Below the pieces are notes generated by a model. It was not told the DNA's origin. It worked only from the letters and a program-made list of their open reading frames with translations, and searched no databases. Below are positions 3,904 through 12,125 of a stretch of DNA of 12,125 bases, piece by piece (the stretch's first letter is position 1; each line of letters starts with the position of its first letter). The stretch comes from a virus. Its lineage: Duplodnaviria; Heunggongvirae; Uroviricota; Caudoviricetes. A program made the translations under genes and the position numbers. The stretch lies in IMG/VR virus record IMGVR_UViG_2534681700_000010, positions 1-12,125 of that record. The stretch is one strand, 5' to 3'.

Positions 3904-3944
3904 GCAAAAATAAAACCCGCAACACTTCTGGCTGCGGGTTTTTT
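3904..3944. terminator. Bidirectional intrinsic-terminator-like hairpin
   Basis: AACCCGCA (3914-3921) pairs with TGCGGGTT (3933-3940) around an 11-nt loop. Flanked by TTTTTT on the plus strand (3939-3944) and by an A-rich run 3905-3915, which reads TTTTATTTTT on the minus strand. Confidence 0.55.
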
Positions 3945-3952
3945 ACTGGCAC

Positions 3953-3976
3953 AAAAAAGCCGGGAAAAATCCCGGC
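3953..3976 (-). terminator. Intrinsic terminator downstream of the PerC-like gene
   Basis: GCCGGGA (3959-3965) pairs with TCCCGGC (3970-3976) around a 4-nt loop, followed on the minus strand by a T6 run (plus-strand A6 at 3953-3958). Starts 6 nt after the stop at 3982-3984. Confidence 0.6.
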
Positions 3977-3981
3977 CTCCG

Positions 3982-4269
3982 TCACTGACTGCAATTTTTC
4001 GATCCAGGGTATTTCCTGAATGCCTTACCATTGGGCTGATGTAATCCCATCCCGGCATGTGCCCGGCTGATGGTTTCGCGCATCTCCCCGAAATTATCCT
4101 GCCTTGCTGGTGGGCGTGCTGCCTTGCGGATACATTCCGCGCGACGTTTTGCCGCCTGTTCCCGTGCCTTGTCATCATTCGCCAGCATGATGACCTCAGC
4201 CCACCGCGCCGCCGCTCTCCGGTACAGACCACGCGCTTCCAGTGCTTCCGCTTTGCTGTCGTGAATCAT
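3982..4269 (-). CDS. PerC/Pch-like small transcriptional regulator (95 aa), tentative family call
   Basis: ATG at 4269 overlaps the upstream stop (ATGA). The AEALEARGLYRRAAARWAEV motif resembles the E-x-x-G-L-W-R-R-A-A-x-R-W core I recall for PerC-family proteins. The family call is from memory only. Confidence 0.5.
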   Translation of the reverse strand: MIHDSKAEALEARGLYRRAAARWAEVIMLANDDKAREQAAKRRAECIRKAARPPARQDNFGEMRETISRAHAGMGLHQPNGKAFRKYPGSKNCSQ

Positions 4270-4814: not shown

Positions 4815-5152
4815 AACTGTCTACCAACTGTCTACCGATATAATTGATTGATTTATTTAATGTTATTAACTCATAACAAAAAAACAATCTGCAAACTGTC
4901 TACTAACTGTCTACCGCATTAATACATTGATAATTAATGATTTTTTCAAAGTGGTAGACAGAGTAGACAGTTAAAAGAGAAATTTTAAAAATGAACCCTT
5001 AACTATCTGTTTTTATATACCCCCCGTGGTTTAGGAATATAGAAACAACTGTCTACTCTCTACCACATTTAAAAATATCTATATAATTCAATGACTTAGC
5101 CGGTAGATAGTTGGTAGAGGGTTAAGTATTACTGTCTACCAACCGTCTACCT
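4815..5152. repeat. Putative replication origin: AACTGTCTACC iterons in both orientations around AT-rich tracts
   Basis: Direct copies at 4815-4825, 4826-4836, 4894-4904, 4905-4915, 5047-5057, 5131-5140 and 5141-5152. Inverted copies (GGTAGACAG / AGTAGACAG) at 4953-4961 and 4962-4970. Degenerate copies at 5001-5010 and 5102-5119. Very AT-rich spacers. Lies immediately 3' of the primase/helicase gene (ends 5179). Confidence 0.7.
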
Positions 5153-5178: not shown

Positions 5179-6984
5179 TTATGTTCTGTCGTTAATCCCT
5201 GTTGCTGCTGGCAACCAGCCATCAGCATCATCATCTAACAGAACATTTGTTATCACTCGCCCTTTATCTGGGCCTTTAGTGCATTTAGCCCGCTTATACT
5301 CCTTTCCGTATTCCGCCATAGCACCCGGCATATCAGTGCCAAAGCGTTTCAGTGATACTGGTTTTCCCAGGCCATGCGCTGACATATAGGCTAAATAAGC
5401 ATGATACAGATATCGTCTCGGGCTAAATGGCACTATTCCCGCATTGCCCACCATCATTCCTTCACATTTAACCAACGACATCAGATAGCCGCAAAAGTCC
5501 ACCAGTGAATCACCCTCGCGTTTTATCACCAGAGCCTCTTCTGATTTCTGCTGCTCATATAACAGACGTCTGGCTTCATCCTGGTCAGAAAAACGAGTAA
5601 GCAGGTGGCGAATCACTACCGCCAGTTCGCATTCTATCTTTTCCGCCAGCATGGGATCGCGTTCGTTCTCCGGTACGACCTCAGAGAAATTAAATATCAC
5701 CCTACGACGCGAGATCCCCCCGCTTCGGTCACTGAATGACATGGCGTTATTGTTTACCGCAAGCACTACTGCCGGAATACGTGTGGAGTAGGGGGCTTTA
5801 TGTTTCGGGTCAATTGCCACCTTGTCGCCGCCAGTAATTGCCTTAATTCCTGCACCATCGCCAGCGTAGCGAGTCATATCCGGCATGATAATCAGCGAAA
5901 AGCCAACTACTAACGCGCGTTCCCTTGCGTCTTCCAGCGCCTTCATGCTTGCCGATACTGTGTTGGCCTTACCCGCCAGCATGGTACAAATCTCAGCCAT
6001 CACACTTTTACCGCTTCCGCCTGGGCCTGTTACCTCAAGGAATAACTGCCAGTCGTACCGGTTCGCCAGTACCATGAATAATGCCGCCAGTACGCGATCA
6101 GCTTTACGATCATTATCTGCCACCGAACGACGCAGCCACTTCCAGAAATTCGGCGCATGTGTTGCCAGCGTTTCCCCCTCTGCTGGCGGGCTGAACGGTA
6201 ATTCACTGGCATTTAACAACCAGTCATTTTTGTTATGCTCCCGAAAATTTCCCGTCCGGGTATCAAATACCCCGTTACTGAATCCAATAAGATTCCTGTC
6301 TGCCCCGCCCATAACAGGCAGGCTCAATTTCATTGTGTCTACGGCAAATTTAATGGCGTTTTGCGAATAACTGATTCCAGCATCAATAAAAATCTTCGCC
6401 ATAGACCGCTGGAGTTCCTTATCAGATACAGGCACCCAGACAATTCCGTTGTAATGGTGAACTACATCAGAATCATCATTTATAGCCAGTGCTCTTCCAT
6501 AATATTCAAGTAACACTTCCCCTCTCTGGCTGGCTCCCATCTGATTTAGTGCTGGCCTGGGTAGGTCAATATTTTTTGTGGTTAATTTCATCGCTGAAAC
6601 TTCCCCACTCTCTGCCTGTTCGCGGATCCGTTGCAGGTAATCGCGCCAGTTCTCCGGCTCCCGGTCGGTGATACCTTTGTATAATTTCGCCTCCTGTACG
6701 CCAGCCAGCGCCAGTTTTTCAGCGATAGCGTTGATCTGGATTGGCTCTATCTCCCCCGCAAGATAGACACGTGCAAAGCGGCGTTTCTCGTCAATAATGC
6801 GGATATTCACCAGGTCTGCCAGTTGCTTCGGCCCCAGGTAAACAGGTGGCACGTTATCGCCGTGTTTTCGTCCTTCGCTTTCAATCCAGTGTTGAGCATG
6901 GGCGTAAGCATCCGTCCCGGCAAAAATGATTACCTCGGTGAATTTATCCTTCGGCTGATATTTTAAATTCGGTGCGTTTTTCAC
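5179..6984 (-). CDS. Primase/helicase replication protein (P4-alpha / D5-like, SF3 helicase P-loop), 601 aa
   Basis: Walker A GPGGSGKS present, with a typical phage/plasmid primase C-terminal architecture. GTG start at 6984 overlaps the upstream stop (GTGA) and is preceded by GGGAGGT with a 5-nt spacer. The N-terminal region has no obvious toprim motif by eye. Confidence 0.9.
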   Translation of the reverse strand: MKNAPNLKYQPKDKFTEVIIFAGTDAYAHAQHWIESEGRKHGDNVPPVYLGPKQLADLVNIRIIDEKRRFARVYLAGEIEPIQINAIAEKLALAGVQEAKLYKGITDREPENWRDYLQRIREQAESGEVSAMKLTTKNIDLPRPALNQMGASQRGEVLLEYYGRALAINDDSDVVHHYNGIVWVPVSDKELQRSMAKIFIDAGISYSQNAIKFAVDTMKLSLPVMGGADRNLIGFSNGVFDTRTGNFREHNKNDWLLNASELPFSPPAEGETLATHAPNFWKWLRRSVADNDRKADRVLAALFMVLANRYDWQLFLEVTGPGGSGKSVMAEICTMLAGKANTVSASMKALEDARERALVVGFSLIIMPDMTRYAGDGAGIKAITGGDKVAIDPKHKAPYSTRIPAVVLAVNNNAMSFSDRSGGISRRRVIFNFSEVVPENERDPMLAEKIECELAVVIRHLLTRFSDQDEARRLLYEQQKSEEALVIKREGDSLVDFCGYLMSLVKCEGMMVGNAGIVPFSPRRYLYHAYLAYMSAHGLGKPVSLKRFGTDMPGAMAEYGKEYKRAKCTKGPDKGRVITNVLLDDDADGWLPAATGINDRT

Positions 6985-7277: not shown

Positions 7278-7643
7278 TTACTCCTGCGTCTTGCTCTGAA
7301 TTACCTGATAACCGCAACTGGTCAGCAATTCGATAAATTCCGGCAGTGTTCCGAAACAGCAATTATCACGCAGCCGTTCGCGGGATACTTCAACGCCGTT
7401 TTCGTAGTGACTCACCATGCGTCCGGTAAAATGCAGATCATCATCGTGATGGCACGTTGACGGCTTAATCAGTCGCGCACGTTCTGCCAGCTCCAGCAAT
7501 GCTTCAACACTTCCGGCAATTGCACCATCCGGCAGGTGGTAATTACGCACTATGCGCCCGTTCTCCACATGGACCAGTAGCTGCCCGGTAAATTTCTCGT
7601 CAAACTGAATGCGGTTAAGGTCGGTAAGTGACAGGTTAATCAT
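7278..7643 (-). CDS. Hypothetical protein (121 aa)
   Basis: ATG at 7643 preceded by AGGAGG with a 6-nt spacer. Start overlaps the stop of the upstream small ORF (ATGATTAA). Confidence 0.65.
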   Translation of the reverse strand: MINLSLTDLNRIQFDEKFTGQLLVHVENGRIVRNYHLPDGAIAGSVEALLELAERARLIKPSTCHHDDDLHFTGRMVSHYENGVEVSRERLRDNCCFGTLPEFIELLTSCGYQVIQSKTQE

Positions 7644-7839
7644 GGCGTACCTCCTGACGAATACGGGCGGCGAATACCATCACGCAGCCATCAGGAGATT
7701 GCTGGCGTGCTTCCTGTTCGCTGGTGGCCTCGATGTGAATCACGCGCGGTTGTGCCGTGCTCAGAGCGATAAAACGCCAGATGTATTTATTCAGGTTGTG
7801 CGAGTCCCGCCCTTGCGGGTGTGTGGTATGATTTCTCAT
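7636..7839 (-). CDS. Hypothetical small protein (67 aa), first gene of the primase operon
   Basis: Internal ATG at 7839 of the long track ORF, preceded by GAGGT. Its stop overlaps the next start. Upstream of this point the same reading frame has antisense-like composition. Confidence 0.5.
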   Translation of the reverse strand: MRNHTTHPQGRDSHNLNKYIWRFIALSTAQPRVIHIEATSEQEARQQSPDGCVMVFAARIRQEVRHD

Positions 7840-7905
7840 AGCTACCTCGATAATCTTGCTATCGTTGGTGGTTAGAAGCCCTGCGAGTGGTAACGACACT
7901 TGCGG

Positions 7906-7992
7906 GGCTTTGCCTTTAAGGTGCAAGTCACCTTTGAGGGTTATGCTACTTTTAGGTGACTTGCACTTCAAGCCTTTTTTTATTTTTTTTTC
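7906..7992 (+). promoter_or_regulatory. Large hairpin (perfect 12-bp inverted repeat inside an extended stem) followed by a T7-A-T9 tract
   Basis: GTGCAAGTCACC (7921-7932) and GGTGACTTGCAC (7955-7966) are perfect reverse complements. Outer GGCTT (7906-7910) pairs with AAGCC (7970-7974). T-tract at 7975-7991. Sits between the divergent RHH-like gene and the primase operon start. Confidence 0.5.
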
Positions 7993-8032
7993 TACGTATA
8001 CTGAACGCCACCTAACAGTAAGGAGGCCAGTA

Positions 8033-8212
8033 ATGCCAACGGGTACAACCAACAACAAATCACAACAAAAAACGGCTAGAATCCCTCTAGAAGTTTTAAG
8101 CGAAATGAATTTGGTCAAAGAGGAAAACGAAACAGACGCGCAGTTTATCGTTACAGCCATGCGTGGCGAGATCAAACGCCGCCAGCGCCGCAAGGCCAAA
8201 GAACAGGAGTAA
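8033..8212 (+). CDS. Small ribbon-helix-helix-like DNA-binding protein (59 aa); candidate repressor
   Basis: TAAGGAGG ends 6 nt before ATG 8033. TATACT (-10-like) at 7997-8002. Protein is hydrophilic with common E. coli codons; TARIPLEVLSEMNLV looks like an RHH beta-strand plus helix. Conflicts with the 402-aa minus-strand track ORF, which I judge antisense here. Confidence 0.55.
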   Translation: MPTGTTNNKSQQKTARIPLEVLSEMNLVKEENETDAQFIVTAMRGEIKRRQRRKAKEQE

Positions 8213-8269
8213 CCATCACCAGCGCCGTGGTGTGAGGAACTACGGTGCATCGTTTTACAGGGCAGCGCC

Positions 8270-8449
8270 ATGACCAACAAAGAATCAACCAAAACACCAT
8301 CACCAACTCGTAAGAGACGACGCAAAAATATAGCGCATGAACATGAATCAGAAAGATTCGCACCTTGTTCGTTTGCTCTTGAGAAATTCCTTAAAGAGCA
8401 CAGGAAAAAGCTCTCGTTGCAAACCTTGGAACGAACCAAATCTGACTGA
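8270..8449 (+). CDS. Possible small basic protein (59 aa), not in the ORF track
   Basis: ATG 8270 to TGA 8447-8449, translated by hand as MTNKESTKTPSPTRKRRRKNIAHEHESERFAPCSFALEKFLKEHRKKLSLQTLERTKSD. Weak SD and several rare codons (AGA, CGA, ATA, AGG). Confidence 0.3.
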   Translation: MTNKESTKTPSPTRKRRRKNIAHEHESERFAPCSFALEKFLKEHRKKLSLQTLERTKSD

Positions 8450-8653
8450 TCACATTGCCCACCAGCCGCAAATGTGGCATTGTTGGTGATGCGTTCAAGT
8501 ATGTAGCTTTTCCACTGGCGGCTCTCTGCGGTCGCCTTTGTTTTATCCAGAACGAAATCAGACATCAGATTGATCAGCACCTGGCGACCTGACAAAATCG
8601 CATCAGTCGCGCCACCAGCAAAATTTTTTGCTTTCCGGACAGCGTGGCCAACG

Positions 8654-8672
8654 ATATTTTGCAGCAAAATAT
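8654..8672. promoter_or_regulatory. Perfect 19-bp palindrome ATATTTTGC-A-GCAAAATAT
   Basis: Read directly from the sequence: 9-bp arms around a single central base. Lies in the unresolved region between the antirepressor gene and the small plus-strand ORFs. Confidence 0.35.
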
Positions 8673-8836
8673 TCTGCATTTCTGGCGTGCTGTGGCGACG
8701 GTGATCAGCGCCTTCACATTGAACGAACTTGTCGCTAAAATTCACCCACATAGCAAACATCGCGGTGCTGTAGGTAATTCGTTCACAAAGGCGCTCCGGC
8801 AACGGGGCGCTTTCTCTTTTTGTAACGGTCAGAGCG

Positions 8837-9637
8837 TTACACATGGCTGTTTTCCTCCATGCGACGGGCTAACCAACGCTGCGAAAGACGAATTAATTCA
8901 GCCTTCCGCTGGTGGTAGTCCTGGCCTAACTCAATCAGCGTGATATTGCTCTGCTCAAGGTAAGAAAGGTGCTCAAGCTGCAACGTGCTCATGTGGTCGC
9001 GTGGTTCGCCTGTAATGCCGTTCGCCAGTGCCCACTGTTTTGCAGTCATGCCACCCAGCACGATACGCGCCAGCATGTTCGCTTCCGTGGTGTAGTGGTG
9101 CTGGAGTGTGTTTTTACCCAGTTCAGCCCGGTACGCCTCCAGCGCGGCACACATTGGCTTAAAGTAGCTGGCAACTGTGATACGGGCTTTCAGTTCCCGG
9201 CGTAACGCTGCGGAACGAACAGGCGCAACCTTGTGTAGCTCCTCCTCGCATTTGATAAAGTACTGGCGAACGGCGCGGCCCTGTTCGGTACGTTCGACCA
9301 TCGCCAGTTCTTTCGCCATGTTCACTGTGATGATGTACTCAAGAGCGGTTTGCTGGCGAGATTTTGCGCTCACCGGATCGGGTCGGCTCAAATATTCAAC
9401 AACCTCATAATCCACGCCTTCCGTGAACCCGTATTCTTCAATGCGCCCCTTGATCCACGAACGGAAAACGCGCCCTACACCTAACGCCTTATGTAACGCT
9501 CTGGCGCTAACAATAGTGGTTTCACTCCCGCCAATAACGCCGGAAATAATCGGGATAATTTCGCCGAAATTTTGCAGATTCTGGTTTTCAGGCCGAACGA
9601 AGCCCCGCCCCTGTACGGGCGTTTTTGGAAATTTCAT
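8837..9637 (-). CDS. Phage antirepressor, AntA-domain protein (266 aa)
   Basis: ITVNMAKELAMVERTEQGRAVRQYFIKCEE and the preceding IPIISGVIGGSETTIVSARALHKALGV match AntA/AntB-type N-terminal antirepressor domains. ATG 9637 preceded by AGGAG with a 5-nt spacer. Confidence 0.85.
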   Translation of the reverse strand: MKFPKTPVQGRGFVRPENQNLQNFGEIIPIISGVIGGSETTIVSARALHKALGVGRVFRSWIKGRIEEYGFTEGVDYEVVEYLSRPDPVSAKSRQQTALEYIITVNMAKELAMVERTEQGRAVRQYFIKCEEELHKVAPVRSAALRRELKARITVASYFKPMCAALEAYRAELGKNTLQHHYTTEANMLARIVLGGMTAKQWALANGITGEPRDHMSTLQLEHLSYLEQSNITLIELGQDYHQRKAELIRLSQRWLARRMEENSHV

Positions 9638-9714: not shown

Positions 9715-9912
9715 TCAGGTAGCTGTTCCGCGTGATTCCGCAATACGCTGATTAATCCACTCGTCAATTTCACTCTCAACGAAAGCAATAGCTCGCGAGC
9801 CAATTTTTACAGGTTTAGGAAAACGCCCTTGGGCAATGAGTTTATAGATCCATGCCCTTCCATACCCTGTACGGCGCATGGTTTCTGGCATACGAATTAA
9901 AGATTGTGACAT
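9715..9912 (-). CDS. alpA: AlpA-family transcriptional regulator / excisionase-like protein (65 aa from ATG 9912)
   Basis: MRRTGYGRAWIYKLIAQGRFPKPVKIGSRAIAFVESEIDEWI matches the AlpA motif pattern. GGGAGA lies 8 nt upstream of ATG 9912. The track's longer version (start 9981) is probably an N-terminal over-extension. Confidence 0.85.
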   Translation of the reverse strand: MSQSLIRMPETMRRTGYGRAWIYKLIAQGRFPKPVKIGSRAIAFVESEIDEWINQRIAESRGTAT

Positions 9913-10026
9913 GATAATCGTCTCCCGTTGTTTATTGATGCCTACGGGAGACATTGAAGCAGGTAAGACATTGGATATCACCGCAATTGCGGTGAATGAT
10001 ACCGCAATTGCGGTATAGGACTACAA

Positions 10027-10782: not shown

Positions 10783-10910
10783 TCTGTGCTACCTCGCACC
10801 CTCTGTAAAAGTGGCTGTGCCAGCCCGCAGAGGTGTACGGGTTTTCAGGAGCGACCCTAGACACAGCCTTTTCTTAATCGCTCAAAGTCTACTACTGTAT
10901 ACTCAACCAG

Positions 10911-12125
10911 TCACCCGCATTTTCCGAACTCACCATGCACCACATTTCCGCCATGCTCGAGCGAATCCATATAGTCGGCATACCACTGGAGCATCTCCCG
11001 GCGACCATCCAGATATTGCGCATGGTTGTATGTGCCACGAATTGAGTTTTTATCGACGTGTGCGAGCTGCGTCTCTATCCACGCGGTGTTATAGCCCTGC
11101 TCATGCAAAATGGTGCTCATGGTGTGCCGGAATCCATGACCAGTAACGCGCCCGGCATAGCCGATACGACGAATGAGCACATTCATCGCCATTTCACTCA
11201 TTGGCTTACTGTGGTGAATACGACCGGGGAAAATAAACTGATACTGGCCTGTCATGTTTTTTAACTGCTCCAGTATTTTTATCGCCTGTTCTGGTAATGG
11301 CACACAATGCGGACGGCGCATCTTCATTCGTTCTTTAGGCACTTCCCACAAACGATTATCAAAATCGATCTCCTGCCATTCTGCCTGCCGTAATTCCCCG
11401 GGTCTGACACCTGTCAGAATTAATAGCCGCATTGCCAGTTTGACGATCTGGCTTCCGGTGTACGTATTAAAAACGCGGAAAAATTCCGGCAGTTCGTCGG
11501 CCTTCAAATAGGCGTAATGCTCTTTTTTATGTGGAGCAAATGCGCTCACCAGGTCAGGGGCTGGATTATATTCGGCGCGTCCGGTGATGATTGCGTACCG
11601 GAACACCTCGCCGCATCGCTGGCGAACCTTACGCAATTTTTCAGTCGCACCACGGTCATTAAGACGGGAAAGAACCGCCAGCAATTCCATCGGCTTAATT
11701 TCTGCGATCGGCCTACCGCCAATGTACGGAAAAACATCTTTTTCAAACGTCTCGATCATTTCCTCGGCGTATGACGATGACCACCTGTCGATCCGCTTTT
11801 CGTACCATTCGCGAGCAATACCCTCAAAAGTATTGCCAAATTTGCTCGCCTGTTCTCGCTTTTGGGCTTTTCTGGCCTCACTTGGATTTATACCACCAGC
11901 AAGAAGCCTTTTAGCCTCATCCCTTGCCGCCCTGGCATCAGACAGAGACACATCAGGGTACACACCCAACGACAACATTTTGGGCTTTCCTGCAAACCTG
12001 TAGCGCAGTCGCCACCCTTTCGAACCGTTCGGCTCAATGAGCAACGAAAGCCCGTTACCGTCATTGAGTGTATAAGCCTTTTCTTTCGGCTTCGCGCGCC
12101 TGATGGCAAGGTCTGAAAGCAGCAT
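10911..12125 (-). CDS. int: Tyrosine site-specific integrase, P4/IntA family
   Basis: Close by-eye match to E. coli IntA-type integrases: N-terminal LSDLAIRRAKPKEKAY...DGNGLSLLI arm-binding region and C-terminal HGFRHT...RGTYNHAQY catalytic region. The ATG falls on the last three bases of the window, so the true start may be slightly upstream and outside it. Confidence 0.95.
   Translation of the reverse strand: MLLSDLAIRRAKPKEKAYTLNDGNGLSLLIEPNGSKGWRLRYRFAGKPKMLSLGVYPDVSLSDARAARDEAKRLLAGGINPSEARKAQKREQASKFGNTFEGIAREWYEKRIDRWSSSYAEEMIETFEKDVFPYIGGRPIAEIKPMELLAVLSRLNDRGATEKLRKVRQRCGEVFRYAIITGRAEYNPAPDLVSAFAPHKKEHYAYLKADELPEFFRVFNTYTGSQIVKLAMRLLILTGVRPGELRQAEWQEIDFDNRLWEVPKERMKMRRPHCVPLPEQAIKILEQLKNMTGQYQFIFPGRIHHSKPMSEMAMNVLIRRIGYAGRVTGHGFRHTMSTILHEQGYNTAWIETQLAHVDKNSIRGTYNHAQYLDGRREMLQWYADYMDSLEHGGNVVHGEFGKCG

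What the first reader, a model, noticed from the sequence alone, without database searches (positions are those of the whole stretch)
8213..8844. Unresolved coding status between the antirepressor and the RHH-like gene; improbably long antisense-open frame
A minus-strand frame is open for 1.2 kb from an ATG at 8844 that overlaps the antirepressor stop (ATGTGTAA). It runs straight through the plus-strand small genes, the hairpin and the T-tract, where its translation has antisense-like composition (rich in Ser, Cys, Leu and Arg). Either a real gene starts at 8844 and its end is obscured (frameshift, recoding or sequencing error), or about 600 bp here is non-coding or encodes only small plus-strand proteins. 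Either would be unusual for so compact an element.
Basis: seen in the sequence. Interest (0 to 1): 0.45.

Follow-up and report, generated by a model that had tools for sequence, protein, structure and literature searches.

The report
Read-through frame nested with icd
The 402-codon antisense frame is real and is kept free of stop codons by selection in dozens of related satellite islands. Only its last 67 codons (an Icd/Kil-like gene) look like a conserved protein, so it is most likely a P4 eta/kil-type frame translated to carry induced transcription across the island's repressor region.

Summary
The minus frame 7636-8844 (402 codons) starts at an ATG overlapping the antA stop (ATGTGTAA). It crosses two plus-strand small genes and a promoter/operator region, then ends at the stop of a 67-aa Icd-like gene (ATG 7839, own SD).

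It is not chance or error. In 35 of 36 related loci the frame is unbroken despite mosaic sequence and lengths of 283-598 aa. Across 1431 non-redundant codons there are 0 stops, against 83 and 94 in the other two frames. The same layout occurs in Klebsiella and, unfused, in Edwardsiella.

Amino-acid selection is seen only in the icd part. The first 131 codons and the promoter region show no codon periodicity, and AlphaFold2 confidence is below 50 for residues 1-353. Over the plus genes the pattern fits the plus strand.

P4's Kil carries the same Icd-like domain and is nested in the longer eta frame, whose translation is reported to let late transcripts escape termination. I read this ORF as an eta/kil-type nested pair in a Gram-negative PICI. 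The difference is that P4's CI-RNA immunity is replaced by an antisense repressor-like gene with variant-specific operator repeats. The anti-termination step is inferred. I class it as a new variant of a known kind.

The parts
7636..8844 (-). Long eta-like open frame of 402 codons. Its ATG overlaps the antA stop, and it shares frame and stop codon with icd.
   Evidence: The frame is open in 35 of 36 segment-A-anchored loci and in 70 of 76 icd-anchored loci. There are 0 stops in 1431 non-redundant codons.
8854..8858 (-). Shine-Dalgarno GGAGG, 9 nt upstream of the long frame's ATG, lying inside the last codons of antA.
   Evidence: The junction sequence is near-identical in 37 distinct loci.
7636..7839 (-). 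Short nested gene, Icd/Kil-like, 67 aa, with its own SD (GAGG, 7848-7845). Its stop overlaps the ATG (7643) of the next gene.
   Evidence: NF033153 at E 7e-19. P4 Kil/Eta hits the same model at 1.4e-20. Codon periodicity is 0.17/0.16/0.42 and pN/pS is 0.16. AlphaFold2 pLDDT is 57-68 here and nowhere else.
8450..8836 (.). Spacer ('segment A'). It is conserved at the nucleotide level and stop-free in the minus frame, but shows no amino-acid-level selection on either strand.
   Evidence: Positional entropy is flat at 0.20/0.19/0.19. pN/pS is 0.58-0.67 in all three phases. There are no Pfam, NCBIfam or PHROG hits. The spacer is absent from Klebsiella and from antA-less relatives.
8033..8212 (+). 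YlcI/YnfO-family small protein that looks ribbon-helix-helix-like. It is the candidate repressor of the icd promoter. SD AAGGAGG at 8020-8026.
   Evidence: NF041551 at 2e-17 and phrog_949 at 1e-18. Variability at plus codon positions follows pos2 < pos1 < pos3. Its alleles travel with different operator repeats.
8270..8449 (+). Small basic protein of unknown function, the second gene of the plus-strand operon.
   Evidence: phrog_21027 at 3e-15. PGAP annotates homologues of this gene in related loci. Codon periodicity is consistent with plus-strand coding.
8517..8546 (+). Plus-sense intrinsic-terminator-like hairpin with T run that ends the plus operon. Read antisense it gives the conserved 'DKTKATAExRQW' motif of the long frame.
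   Evidence: The motif is invariant in alignment A1 and is present in Klebsiella, Edwardsiella and the antA-less loci.
8788..8823 (+). Plus-sense terminator-like hairpin with T run next to the antA stop. On the minus strand no T run follows it.
   Evidence: In 7636-8844 all terminator-like sites are on the plus strand.
7943..7971 (-). Predicted early promoter of icd inside the long frame: -35 TTGAAG at 7971-7966 and -10 TAGCAT at 7948-7943.
   Evidence: A TTGAnn-N16-18-TAnnnT motif sits at the same position in 23 of 25 distinct region variants. This is a motif match only; no transcription start site has been mapped.
7916..7971 (.). Inverted pair of about 13-nt operator-like repeats (AGGTGACTTGCAC). 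A third partial copy lies at 8002-8020.
   Evidence: Other variants carry 2-3 direct or inverted copies of their own 12-13-nt repeat at the same place.
7876..7919 (+). Conserved plus-sense RNA hairpin with a U-rich tail, just beyond the icd start region. Its function is unknown.
   Evidence: 99% of cells pair in the plus sense, 3 pairs covary, and 18 cells are G.U, which would be mismatches in the minus sense.
7975..8002 (+). T-tract and -10-like TATACT (7997-8002) upstream of the RHH gene. This is an A/T-rich spacer between divergent promoters, not a terminator tail.
   Evidence: The T-tract is kept in variants whose repeats are direct and form no hairpin.
8837..9637 (-). AntA/AntB-type gene whose stop overlaps the start of the long frame.
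   Evidence: PF08346 at 2.5e-23.
9715..9981 (-). AlpA-family regulator and presumed head of the inducible operon that reads into the long frame.
   Evidence: PF05930 at 2.5e-19. In antA-less relatives the long frame starts 8-10 nt after this gene's stop.

Best explanation
The window is a Gram-negative phage-inducible chromosomal island. On the minus strand it carries int, alpA, antA, icd, a D5-type primase, proQ and perC.

The 402-codon frame is the counterpart of the eta/kil nested pair of satellite phage P4. There are two forms:
- The short form (67 aa, ATG 7839, own SD) is the Icd/Kil homologue. It would be made from a local promoter at about 7943-7971, flanked by operator-like repeats and facing a divergently transcribed small RHH-like gene.
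- The long form starts at ATG 8844, coupled to the antA stop. It can only be translated on transcripts arriving from the upstream alpA-antA operon.

Those transcripts must cross about 1 kb that is antisense to the RHH operon and would otherwise be untranslated. Ribosomes running the long frame keep the RNA covered, so Rho cannot terminate. They then deliver translation in frame through icd into the overlapping downstream genes up to the primase.

Selection therefore acts on the absence of stops and frameshifts, not on the amino-acid sequence.

Shown: the frame, its conservation, the lack of protein-level constraint outside icd, homology of the short gene to P4 Kil, and start-codon coupling to the upstream gene.

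Inferred: read-through transcription from alpA, translation of the long frame, Rho as the threat, and the RHH protein as repressor.
For: 1. Conservation of openness. All 120 best database homologues listed are 283-503 aa, and most cover 100% of the query at 57-100% identity. In a sample of 36 viral-contig loci anchored on segment-A motifs, 35 are unbroken, with lengths of 283-598 aa. In an icd-anchored sample blind to openness, 70 of 76 loci have at least 147 stop-free in-frame codons upstream of the icd ATG.

2. Stop-codon statistics. In 1431 codons that are less than 75% identical to any earlier sequence in the set there are 0 stops, against 83 and 94 in the +1 and +2 frames. The composition-based probability is about 1e-32.

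3. No protein-level selection outside icd. Positional entropies are:
- segment A: 0.20/0.19/0.19
- promoter region: 0.99/1.00/1.07
- icd: 0.17/0.16/0.42

pN/pS in segment A is 0.58-0.67 in all three phases. The true frames of antA and icd give 0.32 and 0.16. AlphaFold2 pLDDT is below 50 for residues 1-353.

4. The start always abuts the upstream gene:
- ATGTGTAA overlap with antA in 37 distinct loci
- ATGA overlap with a Bro-like gene in Klebsiella
- 8-10 nt after the alpA-like stop in antA-less E. coli loci

5. Fusion to icd is not required. In Edwardsiella and in L118 the covering frame ends 16-20 nt before the icd ATG.

6. P4 comparison. P4's 214-codon frame 8168-8812 ends in the same Icd-like domain and starts at the end of vis/ORF88. 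The published account of eta/kil is summarised in PMC10111431, citing Forti et al. 1999. It says that full-length Eta is translated only from the upstream late promoter, is coupled to the alpA homologue, and that its translation prevents termination.

7. Strand asymmetry. All terminator-like sites within 7636-8844 are on the plus strand and none is on the minus strand. From antA to the primase, every gene junction on the minus strand is an overlap or a 6-nt gap.

8. AlpA is the helper-induced activator in Gram-negative PICIs, and these islands are transcribed unidirectionally (PMC6092414).
Against: - No transcript, ribosome or Rho data exist for this element, so the mechanism rests on analogy and on selection signatures.
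- The feature is not universal. L113, L117 and L120 have no long frame; there the antisense operon holds a 241-aa gene. L105 is split and L033 has a frameshift.
- In 16 icd-anchored loci the frame is open for 214-360 codons but lacks an early ATG, so initiation there is unclear.
- Over the two plus genes the third codon positions coincide. Selection on the two strands cannot be cleanly separated there: pN/pS is 0.30-0.43 for the plus frame and 0.34-0.49 for the minus frame.
- The almost constant in-frame fusion to icd could mean that the long protein itself matters.
- The primary P4 paper could not be read here.
Confidence: 0.7

Rival explanations
1. The long frame encodes a functional 402-aa protein, an N-terminally extended Icd or 'Eta-like' protein. 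The product itself, not the act of translation, is what selection preserves. In that case the locus holds true antisense-overlapping protein genes.
For: A strong conserved SD and ATG. The frame is fused in frame to icd in almost all E. coli and Klebsiella loci. NCBI annotates many full-length versions as proteins. Over the plus genes, pN/pS in the minus frame is also below 1.
Against: Segment A and the promoter region show no frame-specific constraint. The middle part is made of unrelated cassettes in different variants. AlphaFold2 pLDDT is below 50 for residues 1-353. There are no family hits outside icd. Edwardsiella and L118 cover the region with an unfused frame. Over the plus genes the least variable position is plus-strand codon position 2.
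Confidence: 0.15
2. The frame is a chance or compositional 'shadow' ORF. It is open only because it lies antisense to real genes in a phase that is poor in stop codons.
For: Third codon positions of the plus genes and of the long frame coincide in every variant, and this phase is relatively stop-poor. The middle part has an antisense-like composition.
Against: The same phase carries 0.033 stops per codon in 13 genes of this window, which gives P about 0.017 for 120 codons. The frame is also open over about 280 codons that are not antisense to any gene. It stays open across unrelated cassettes and about 20 length classes. All 24 Tyr codons counted in the listed plus-gene variants are preceded by purine-ending codons. 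None of the 152 His/Gln codons is preceded by a T-ending codon.
Confidence: 0.03
3. A sequencing or assembly error, a pseudogene, or programmed recoding hides the true end of a shorter gene that starts at 8844.
For: Nothing beyond the odd length. One relative (L033) does carry a frameshift.
Against: The identical 402-aa product is on record from 74 contigs (P0001). The frame is intact in independent assemblies of several species. No homologue shows a stop at the end of segment A.
Confidence: 0.02
4. The frame is kept open for a reason other than blocking Rho. One possibility is that ribosomes must disrupt the minus-sense complement of the hairpin or an antisense RNA at the icd start. Another is that translated convergent transcription silences the RHH operon.
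For: A conserved plus-sense hairpin lies opposite the icd leader. The long transcript is fully antisense to the RHH operon. In P4, immunity also acts at the kil translation start.
Against: No promoter for a plus-sense small RNA could be identified consistently in both icd N-terminal variants. These effects would add to anti-termination rather than replace it.
Confidence: 0.1

Closest known systems
eta/kil nested genes of satellite phage P4 (Forti et al. 1999, as summarised in PMC10111431)
   Same: A short toxic gene with the Icd-like domain sits at the 3' end of a longer in-frame ORF. The long ORF starts at the end of the upstream alpA/vis-type operon and contains the early promoter. It is followed by tightly coupled replication genes.
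   Different: P4's eta is about 200 codons and encloses same-strand immunity RNAs: Rfam C4 at 8420-8507 and an isrK-like element at 8615-8692. This frame is 402 codons and lacks both RNAs. Instead it runs antisense through a two-gene plus-strand operon, its terminators and a protein-type operator region. It is coupled to antA rather than directly to alpA. It has no Phage_ASH match (compare).
immI operon of phage P1 (c4 RNA, icd, ant); from my own knowledge
   Same: The Icd family gene sits at the head of an operon. Translation of icd is needed for expression of the downstream genes, and blocking it causes Rho-dependent polarity.
   Different: In P1 the order is c4-icd-ant, and control is by a same-strand processed RNA. 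No long upstream in-frame ORF is described. No C4 RNA was found here.
Gram-negative PICIs such as EcCICFT073 and EcCIMP1
   Same: Gene content and order are shared: int, alpA, antirepressor, Ash/Icd, primase and perC. Transcription is unidirectional and AlpA is the helper-induced activator.
   Different: The published descriptions that I read treat the Icd/Ash gene as an ordinary protein gene and call a global repressor 'unclear'. In the papers I read, the long read-through frame and the antisense RHH/operator module are not described.
Long antisense 'shadow' ORFs and overlapping antisense genes
   Same: A long ORF lies opposite annotated genes, in the phase where third codon positions coincide.
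   Different: Here openness is conserved across unrelated sequence cassettes and across non-coding DNA, with no amino-acid constraint. This fits neither a chance shadow ORF nor a second protein gene.

Membership tests
P4 eta/kil-type nested read-through ORF | The short 3'-terminal gene is homologous to P4 Kil (Icd-like domain) and has its own start signals. | tested here: met
   NF033153 at 7e-19 on residues 354-397. P4's frame hits the same model at 1.4e-20. ATG 7839 with GAGG at 7848-7845 is conserved in all variants.
P4 eta/kil-type nested read-through ORF | A longer ORF in the same frame shares the stop codon and begins upstream of the early promoter. | tested here: met
   ORF 7636-8844. 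The predicted promoter at 7943-7971 lies inside it and is positionally conserved in 23 of 25 variants. The promoter is a motif match only.
P4 eta/kil-type nested read-through ORF | The long ORF starts at the 3' end of the upstream inducible operon gene (translational coupling). | tested here: met
   ATGTGTAA overlap with antA. The start is 8-10 nt after the alpA-like stop in L044 and L045. There is an ATGA overlap in Klebsiella.
P4 eta/kil-type nested read-through ORF | The immunity RNA CI (Rfam C4) and its seqA target (isrK-like) are encoded inside the long ORF. | tested here: not met
   Neither family matches in 7600-8900, even at E up to 10. The positive control in P4 found both.
P4 eta/kil-type nested read-through ORF | Translation of the long ORF prevents Rho-dependent termination of late transcripts. 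| not testable with these tools
   Indirect support only: selection against stops without amino-acid constraint, and no minus-strand intrinsic terminators.
Pfam Phage_ASH (PF10554) | A profile match in the part of the ORF upstream of the Icd domain. | tested here: not met
   The 402-aa product has 0 Pfam families. P4's frame matches at 4.5e-23.
Icd-like host cell division inhibitor (NF033153) | A profile match above the curated cut-off. | tested here: met
   67.7 bits against a cut-off of 25. Inhibition of cell division itself was not tested.
YlcI/YnfO family (NF041551), acting as an RHH-type repressor | A profile match, plus DNA binding to the adjacent repeats. | tested here: inconclusive
   The profile is met at 2e-17. 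The RHH fold and operator binding are inferred from the sequence pattern and from the co-variation of protein alleles with repeat alleles. Neither has been tested.
True antisense-overlapping protein-coding gene | Frame-specific purifying selection on the amino-acid sequence of the minus frame. | tested here: not met
   The signal is flat in segment A and in the promoter region. Over the plus genes the result is inconclusive but leans toward the plus strand.
Gram-negative PICI | int, alpA and a primase/replicase, with co-oriented transcription and a size of about 10-15 kb. | tested here: met
   Pfam hits for the integrase, AlpA and a D5-type primase, all on the minus strand. Helper-dependent mobilisation was not tested.

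The most novel reading that the evidence does not exclude
The locus is a two-promoter switch in which an ORF exists only to be translated.

In the quiescent state a small RHH repressor, encoded antisense inside that ORF, shuts the internal icd promoter. A short plus-sense RNA ending at the conserved hairpin 7876-7919 may also cover the icd start, as a cis-encoded replacement for P4's CI RNA.

After helper-induced AlpA expression, ribosome-protected transcripts run antisense through the repressor operon. They bypass the repressed promoter and at the same time silence the repressor by convergent transcription, which commits the island to replication.

This would supply the 'missing' repressor of Gram-negative PICIs. 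It would also be a clear natural case of selection on the reading frame without selection on the protein.
Probability: 0.3. Interest if true: 0.75.

Novelty: new variant of a known kind. Interest (0 to 1): 0.6.

Why it matters
- **Annotation.** Public annotation of this gene is inconsistent. The same locus is called as an 'Icd-like protein' of anything from 67 to 435 aa in NCBI records, and the frame itself runs to 598 aa in some relatives. PHROG labels it a 'transcriptional repressor'. The Pfam Phage_ASH match in P4 lies over the stretch that holds P4's two immunity RNA elements. Recognising the eta/kil logic gives a rule: annotate the short icd and flag the long frame as a read-through ORF.
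- **Biology.** This is a large, well-replicated example of a reading frame conserved for translation itself. It persists across non-coding DNA, promoters, operators and the antisense of real genes.
- **Satellite regulation.** It points to a concrete immunity module: an RHH-like gene with allele-specific operator repeats at an internal promoter. In this family of islands the existence of a repressor has been called unclear.
- **Testability.** It predicts how AlpA-driven induction reaches the replication genes.

Tried and rejected
- **P4-type immunity RNAs.** Rfam scans of the whole window (E up to 1) and of 7600-8900 (E up to 10) found no C4 or isrK in the region. Only unrelated weak hits appeared.
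- **Primary P4 paper.** Forti et al. 1999 is not held. The P4 mechanism is therefore cited second-hand from PMC10111431 and from my own knowledge.
- **Phage searches.** tblastn of the long product against phage records gave one weak partial hit. tblastn of the RHH protein gave none.
- **Promoter scan.** The consensus scan did not report the icd promoter, which matches only 8 of 12 positions. I found it by comparing variants.
- **Strand assignment over the plus genes.** I tried to separate the strands by pN/pS. Third codon positions coincide, so the two frames give nearly the same values. One class of the regular-expression collection was contaminated with false hits.
- **Plus-sense promoter for the hairpin.** A possible extended -10 (TGGTATGAT, 7824-7832) exists in one icd variant but not in the other, so I left this open.
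- **Segment A as a domain.** I considered it as a protein domain and rejected that.
- **The T-tract as a terminator tail.** Rejected, because variants with direct repeats keep the T-tract without any hairpin.
- **Rho-utilisation signal.** The C/G ratio of the minus-sense RNA peaks at 1.3-1.6 around 7800-7920. This is suggestive only.
Full report
**1. What is in the sequence**

The ORF list gives a minus-strand frame 7636..8844 of 402 codons starting with ATG. On the minus strand the start reads ATGTGTAA. The ATG is at 8844-8842, and the TAA at 8839-8837 is the stop of the 266-aa AntA/AntB-type gene 8837-9637 (PF08346, 2.5e-23). A GGAGG lies 9 nt upstream of the ATG.

The frame then crosses the following, in order:
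- a 390-bp stretch with no annotated gene (8450-8836, 'segment A')
- the antisense of two plus-strand small genes, 8270-8449 and 8033-8212
- a 190-bp intergenic region with an inverted repeat and a T-tract
- 67 codons that hit the NCBIfam model for Icd-like host cell division inhibitors (NF033153, 7e-19, residues 354-397)

That last part has its own ATG (7839) and GAGG (7848-7845). Its stop overlaps the ATG of the next gene (7643).

The wider window is an integrative satellite of the Gram-negative PICI type. All of the following are on the minus strand:
- integrase 10911-12125
- an int-alpA RNA motif
- AlpA 9715-9981
- AntA
- DUF4222
- D5-type primase 5179-6984
- ProQ/FinO
- PerC
- Abi_2

**2. 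Is the open frame more than chance?**

In the window the other five frames of the same interval carry 9-28 stops.

The plus genes and the long frame are phased so that their third codon positions coincide. This phase is relatively poor in stops. Even so, in 13 real genes of this window it carries 0.033 stops per codon, and every gene has at least two. That gives P about 0.017 for the roughly 120 codons opposite the two small genes alone.

The comparative evidence is much stronger:
- Three related E. coli chromosomal loci (83-92% nucleotide identity, with indels) have the same frame open for 419, 435 and 528 codons.
- The protein database holds over 2000 hits. The best 120 are 283-503 aa, and most cover the whole query at 57-100% identity.
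- An alignment of 18 of these shows a mosaic. The middle part consists of unrelated cassettes and insertions of 17 to more than 100 codons, all of them stop-free.
- In 36 viral-contig loci found through two peptide motifs of segment A, and therefore chosen blind to the state of the middle, 35 have an unbroken frame of 283-598 codons. One (L033) has a frameshift.
- After removing redundancy (sequence less than 75% identical to anything already counted), 1431 codons upstream of icd contain no stop in frame. The +1 and +2 frames of the same bases contain 83 and 94. The composition-based probability is about 1e-32.
- A second sample of 80 loci was anchored only on the Icd domain. Of the 76 not cut by a contig end, 70 have at least 147 stop-free in-frame codons upstream of the icd ATG.

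The architecture also occurs outside E. coli:
- Escherichia ruysiae: 336 codons.
- Klebsiella pneumoniae: 324 codons, with an ATGA overlap with a Bro-like gene and an antisense YlcI-like gene inside.
- Edwardsiella hoshinae: the covering frame ends 16 nt before the icd ATG instead of being fused.

**3. Which parts are protein-coding, and on which strand?**

I built a codon alignment of 37 distinct long frames and measured variability at the three codon positions.

| Segment | pos1 / pos2 / pos3 entropy |
|---|---|
| icd | 0.17 / 0.16 / 0.42 |
| Segment A | 0.20 / 0.19 / 0.19 |
| Promoter region | 0.99 / 1.00 / 1.07 |
| Opposite the RHH-like gene | 0.54 / 0.66 / 1.07 |
| Opposite the second small gene | 0.36 / 0.42 / 0.58 |

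- The icd part shows the classic coding pattern.
- Segment A and the promoter region are flat. This argues against amino-acid-level selection in any frame of either strand.
- Opposite the two small genes the least variable position is minus position 1, which is plus-strand position 2. That is what a plus-strand protein gene predicts.

Pairwise pN/pS gives the same picture:
- antA: 0.32 in its true frame, against about 1.45 in the shifted frames.
- icd: 0.16 in its true frame.
- Segment A: 0.58-0.67 in all three phases.

Over the plus genes the two strands cannot be separated by pN/pS, because the wobble positions coincide (0.30-0.43 against 0.34-0.49).

Other evidence agrees:
- AlphaFold2 on the 18-sequence alignment gives pLDDT below 50 for residues 1-353 and 57-68 only over the Icd domain. 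The alignment is shallow, so this is weak support.
- Segment A has no Pfam, NCBIfam or PHROG match.
- The plus genes do have support. The first hits NF041551 (YlcI/YnfO) at 2e-17 and phrog_949 at 1e-18. The second hits phrog_21027 at 3e-15.
- The first plus gene has a strong SD. Plus-sense terminator-like hairpins follow the genes at 8222-8248 and 8517-8536.

The conserved peptide 'DKTKATAExRQW' of the long frame is the antisense reading of the 8517-8536 terminator. It marks the start of the long frame in Klebsiella and in the antA-less E. coli elements.

**4. The intergenic 'hairpin and T-tract'**

I compared 25 distinct versions of the region between the icd ATG and the RHH gene ATG. The comparison shows four things.

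- **Operator-like repeats.** The window's large inverted repeat (7916-7933 / 7954-7971, with a third partial copy at 8002-8020) corresponds in other variants to two or three copies of a variant-specific 12-13-nt repeat. Examples are AGGTGTTGAACAC, AGGTGTGGCCCAC, GTGTATACACA and GTGTACCCCCAC. They may be direct or inverted and are often 23-25 bp apart. They behave like operators. Each repeat allele travels with a different allele of the small RHH-like protein, which differs mainly in its N-terminal strand region.
- **A conserved minus-strand promoter motif.** A sigma-70-like motif TTGAnn-N16-18-TAnnnT sits 129-141 nt upstream of the icd ATG in 23 of 25 variants. In the window it is TTGAAG at 7971-7966 and TAGCAT at 7948-7943. 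An early promoter therefore probably lies inside the long frame.
- **The T-tract is not a terminator tail.** It persists where the repeats are direct and form no hairpin. It lies between this promoter and a -10-like TATACT (7997-8002) upstream of the RHH gene, so I read it as an A/T-rich spacer between divergent promoters.
- **A separate smaller hairpin.** The hairpin at 7876-7910 is conserved with three covarying pairs. It is 99% paired in the plus sense, and 18 of its cells are G.U, which would be mismatches in the minus sense. It is followed by a U-rich run. I could not assign it a promoter, and it remains unexplained.

**5. Mechanism proposed**

P4's frame 8168-8812 ends in the same Icd-like domain (1.4e-20). 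It starts at the 3' end of ORF88/vis, the AlpA homologue. Inside it, on the same strand, lie the CI RNA (Rfam C4, 8420-8507) and an isrK-like element (8615-8692).

PMC10111431, citing Forti et al. 1999, summarises the P4 mechanism as follows:
- A promoter internal to eta gives transcripts that are quickly terminated.
- Kil is the truncated form of Eta.
- Full-length Eta is translated only from the upstream late promoter and is coupled to the alpA homologue.
- Its translation prevents termination, so that late transcription reads through to the downstream genes.

The window has every structural element of this design except the RNAs:
- The Kil homologue has its own start.
- The longer in-frame ORF contains a promoter.
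- The start abuts the upstream operon gene.
- From antA to the primase, every gene junction is an overlap or a 6-nt gap.

In antA-less relatives the long frame starts 8-10 nt after the alpA-like gene, exactly as in P4.

It is established knowledge that Rho terminates untranslated RNA, and antisense RNA in particular. A roughly 1-kb untranslated passage antisense to the RHH operon would be an obvious target. Continuous translation would protect it. This explains why selection removes stops and frameshifts but ignores the encoded amino acids.

It also explains why the frame is either fused to icd or ends just before its ATG. Either arrangement hands ribosomes on to the coupled downstream genes.

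AlpA is the helper-induced activator of Gram-negative PICIs, which are transcribed unidirectionally (PMC6092414). This fits the upstream operon as the induced route.

All of the dynamic steps are inferred: read-through, translation, Rho sensitivity, and repression by the RHH protein.

**6. Exceptions and limits**

The frame is not universal:
- In L113, L117 and L120 the antisense operon holds an Arc-like RHH gene plus a 241-aa gene, and there is no long frame.
- L105 is split in two.
- L083, L118 and L123 cover the region with a frame that is not fused to icd.
- In 16 icd-anchored loci the frame is open for 214-360 codons but has no early ATG.

These cases show that the device can be lost or built differently. 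They also leave room for a role of the long product where it is fused.

**7. Comparison and novelty**

The closest known system is P4 eta/kil. Four defining features are met here. The enclosed CI/seqA RNAs and the Phage_ASH match were tested and are absent. The anti-termination function cannot be tested with these tools.

I therefore describe the locus as working like eta/kil and as a variant of it, not as the same module. The immunity determinant appears to have been exchanged for a protein repressor with operators. As a result the read-through frame has to run antisense through real genes.

Hybrid loci exist. L031 and L033 carry a stretch that by eye resembles P4's eta (Phage_ASH) region, followed by a second Icd-like domain, inserted inside icd. 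L031 is still open for 533 codons.

The PICI papers I read list Icd/Ash, AntA and YlcI/YnfO as ordinary or accessory genes. They call a global repressor unclear. PMC10111431 notes CI/seqA homologues in PICI Bro zones but does not describe this antisense arrangement.

**Verdict:** a real, strongly selected feature; a new variant of a known kind; interest about 0.6.

Noticed in passing
window 7876-7919 (+): A conserved hairpin with a U-rich tail that pairs only in the plus sense (99% of cells paired, 18 G.U cells, 3 covarying pairs). It lies opposite the icd leader, just beyond the icd SD. It could be the terminator of a cis-antisense RNA or an insulator. No consistent promoter was found for it.
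   Followed up: partly
window 7916-8020; L001 3336-3371; L002 3287-3340; L003 3464-3567; L006 3803-3875: Variant-specific 12-13-nt repeats in 2-3 copies flank the predicted divergent promoters. They co-vary with alleles of the small RHH-like protein, as expected of an immunity-specificity module.
   Followed up: partly
window 10799-10867 (-): A full-length match to the Rfam int-alpA RNA motif (RF02996, 49.8 bits, E 5e-8), lying between the integrase gene and the 251-aa ORF.
   Followed up: no
L043 (phage P4) 8329-8704: The Pfam Phage_ASH match on P4's eta frame (residues 37-161) covers the DNA that encodes the CI RNA (Rfam C4) and the isrK-like element. The 'protein family' may therefore largely reflect conserved RNA genes. 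The PHROG label 'transcriptional repressor' for Icd-like proteins looks like a legacy of P4's old 'cI protein' annotation.
   Followed up: partly
L031 3001-4599; L033 3001-4577: These are hybrid loci. A stretch that by eye resembles P4's eta (Phage_ASH) region, followed by a second Icd-like domain, is inserted after the first 18 codons of icd. The frame is still open in L031 (533 aa), while L033 has a frameshift in the promoter region.
   Followed up: partly
L113 1417-2361 (-): In this relative the antisense operon holds an Arc-like 64-aa RHH gene plus a 241-aa gene of unknown function, and the long read-through frame is absent. This is a natural 'loss' variant that would be useful for comparison.
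   Followed up: partly
window 8200-8212 and 8437-8449 region; In related loci both plus-strand small genes end in the same ...KEQE* tail, and in the window the RHH-like gene does. The antisense reading is 'YSCSL(A/T)L'. This suggests a duplicated 3' end or terminator module.
   Followed up: no
window 8713-8823 (+): A plus-strand promoter-like site (TTCACA-17-TAAAAT, 10 of 12 matches) lies about 45 nt upstream of the terminator-like hairpin 8788-8813. This could define a roughly 75-nt plus-sense RNA antisense to the first codons of the long frame. The promoter part lies in a region that has two alleles.
   Followed up: no
window 4892-4974: A long imperfect palindrome with repeated AACTGTCTAC/GTAGACAGTT units lies between the primase and proQ genes. 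It gave spurious miRNA hits on both strands. It may be an origin or iteron region.
   Followed up: no
window 3909-3992 (-): Two tandem terminator-like hairpins lie downstream of perC. They give weak sub-threshold Rfam hits (ncr1175, isrK).
   Followed up: no
L001-L003, L044, L045 (RefSeq annotation): PGAP calls the same Icd-like gene with lengths of 67, 134, 158 or 190 aa in different genomes, overlapping the YlcI/YnfO gene. It leaves about 400 bp next to antA unannotated. Other NCBI records call the full 400-435 aa.
   Followed up: yes
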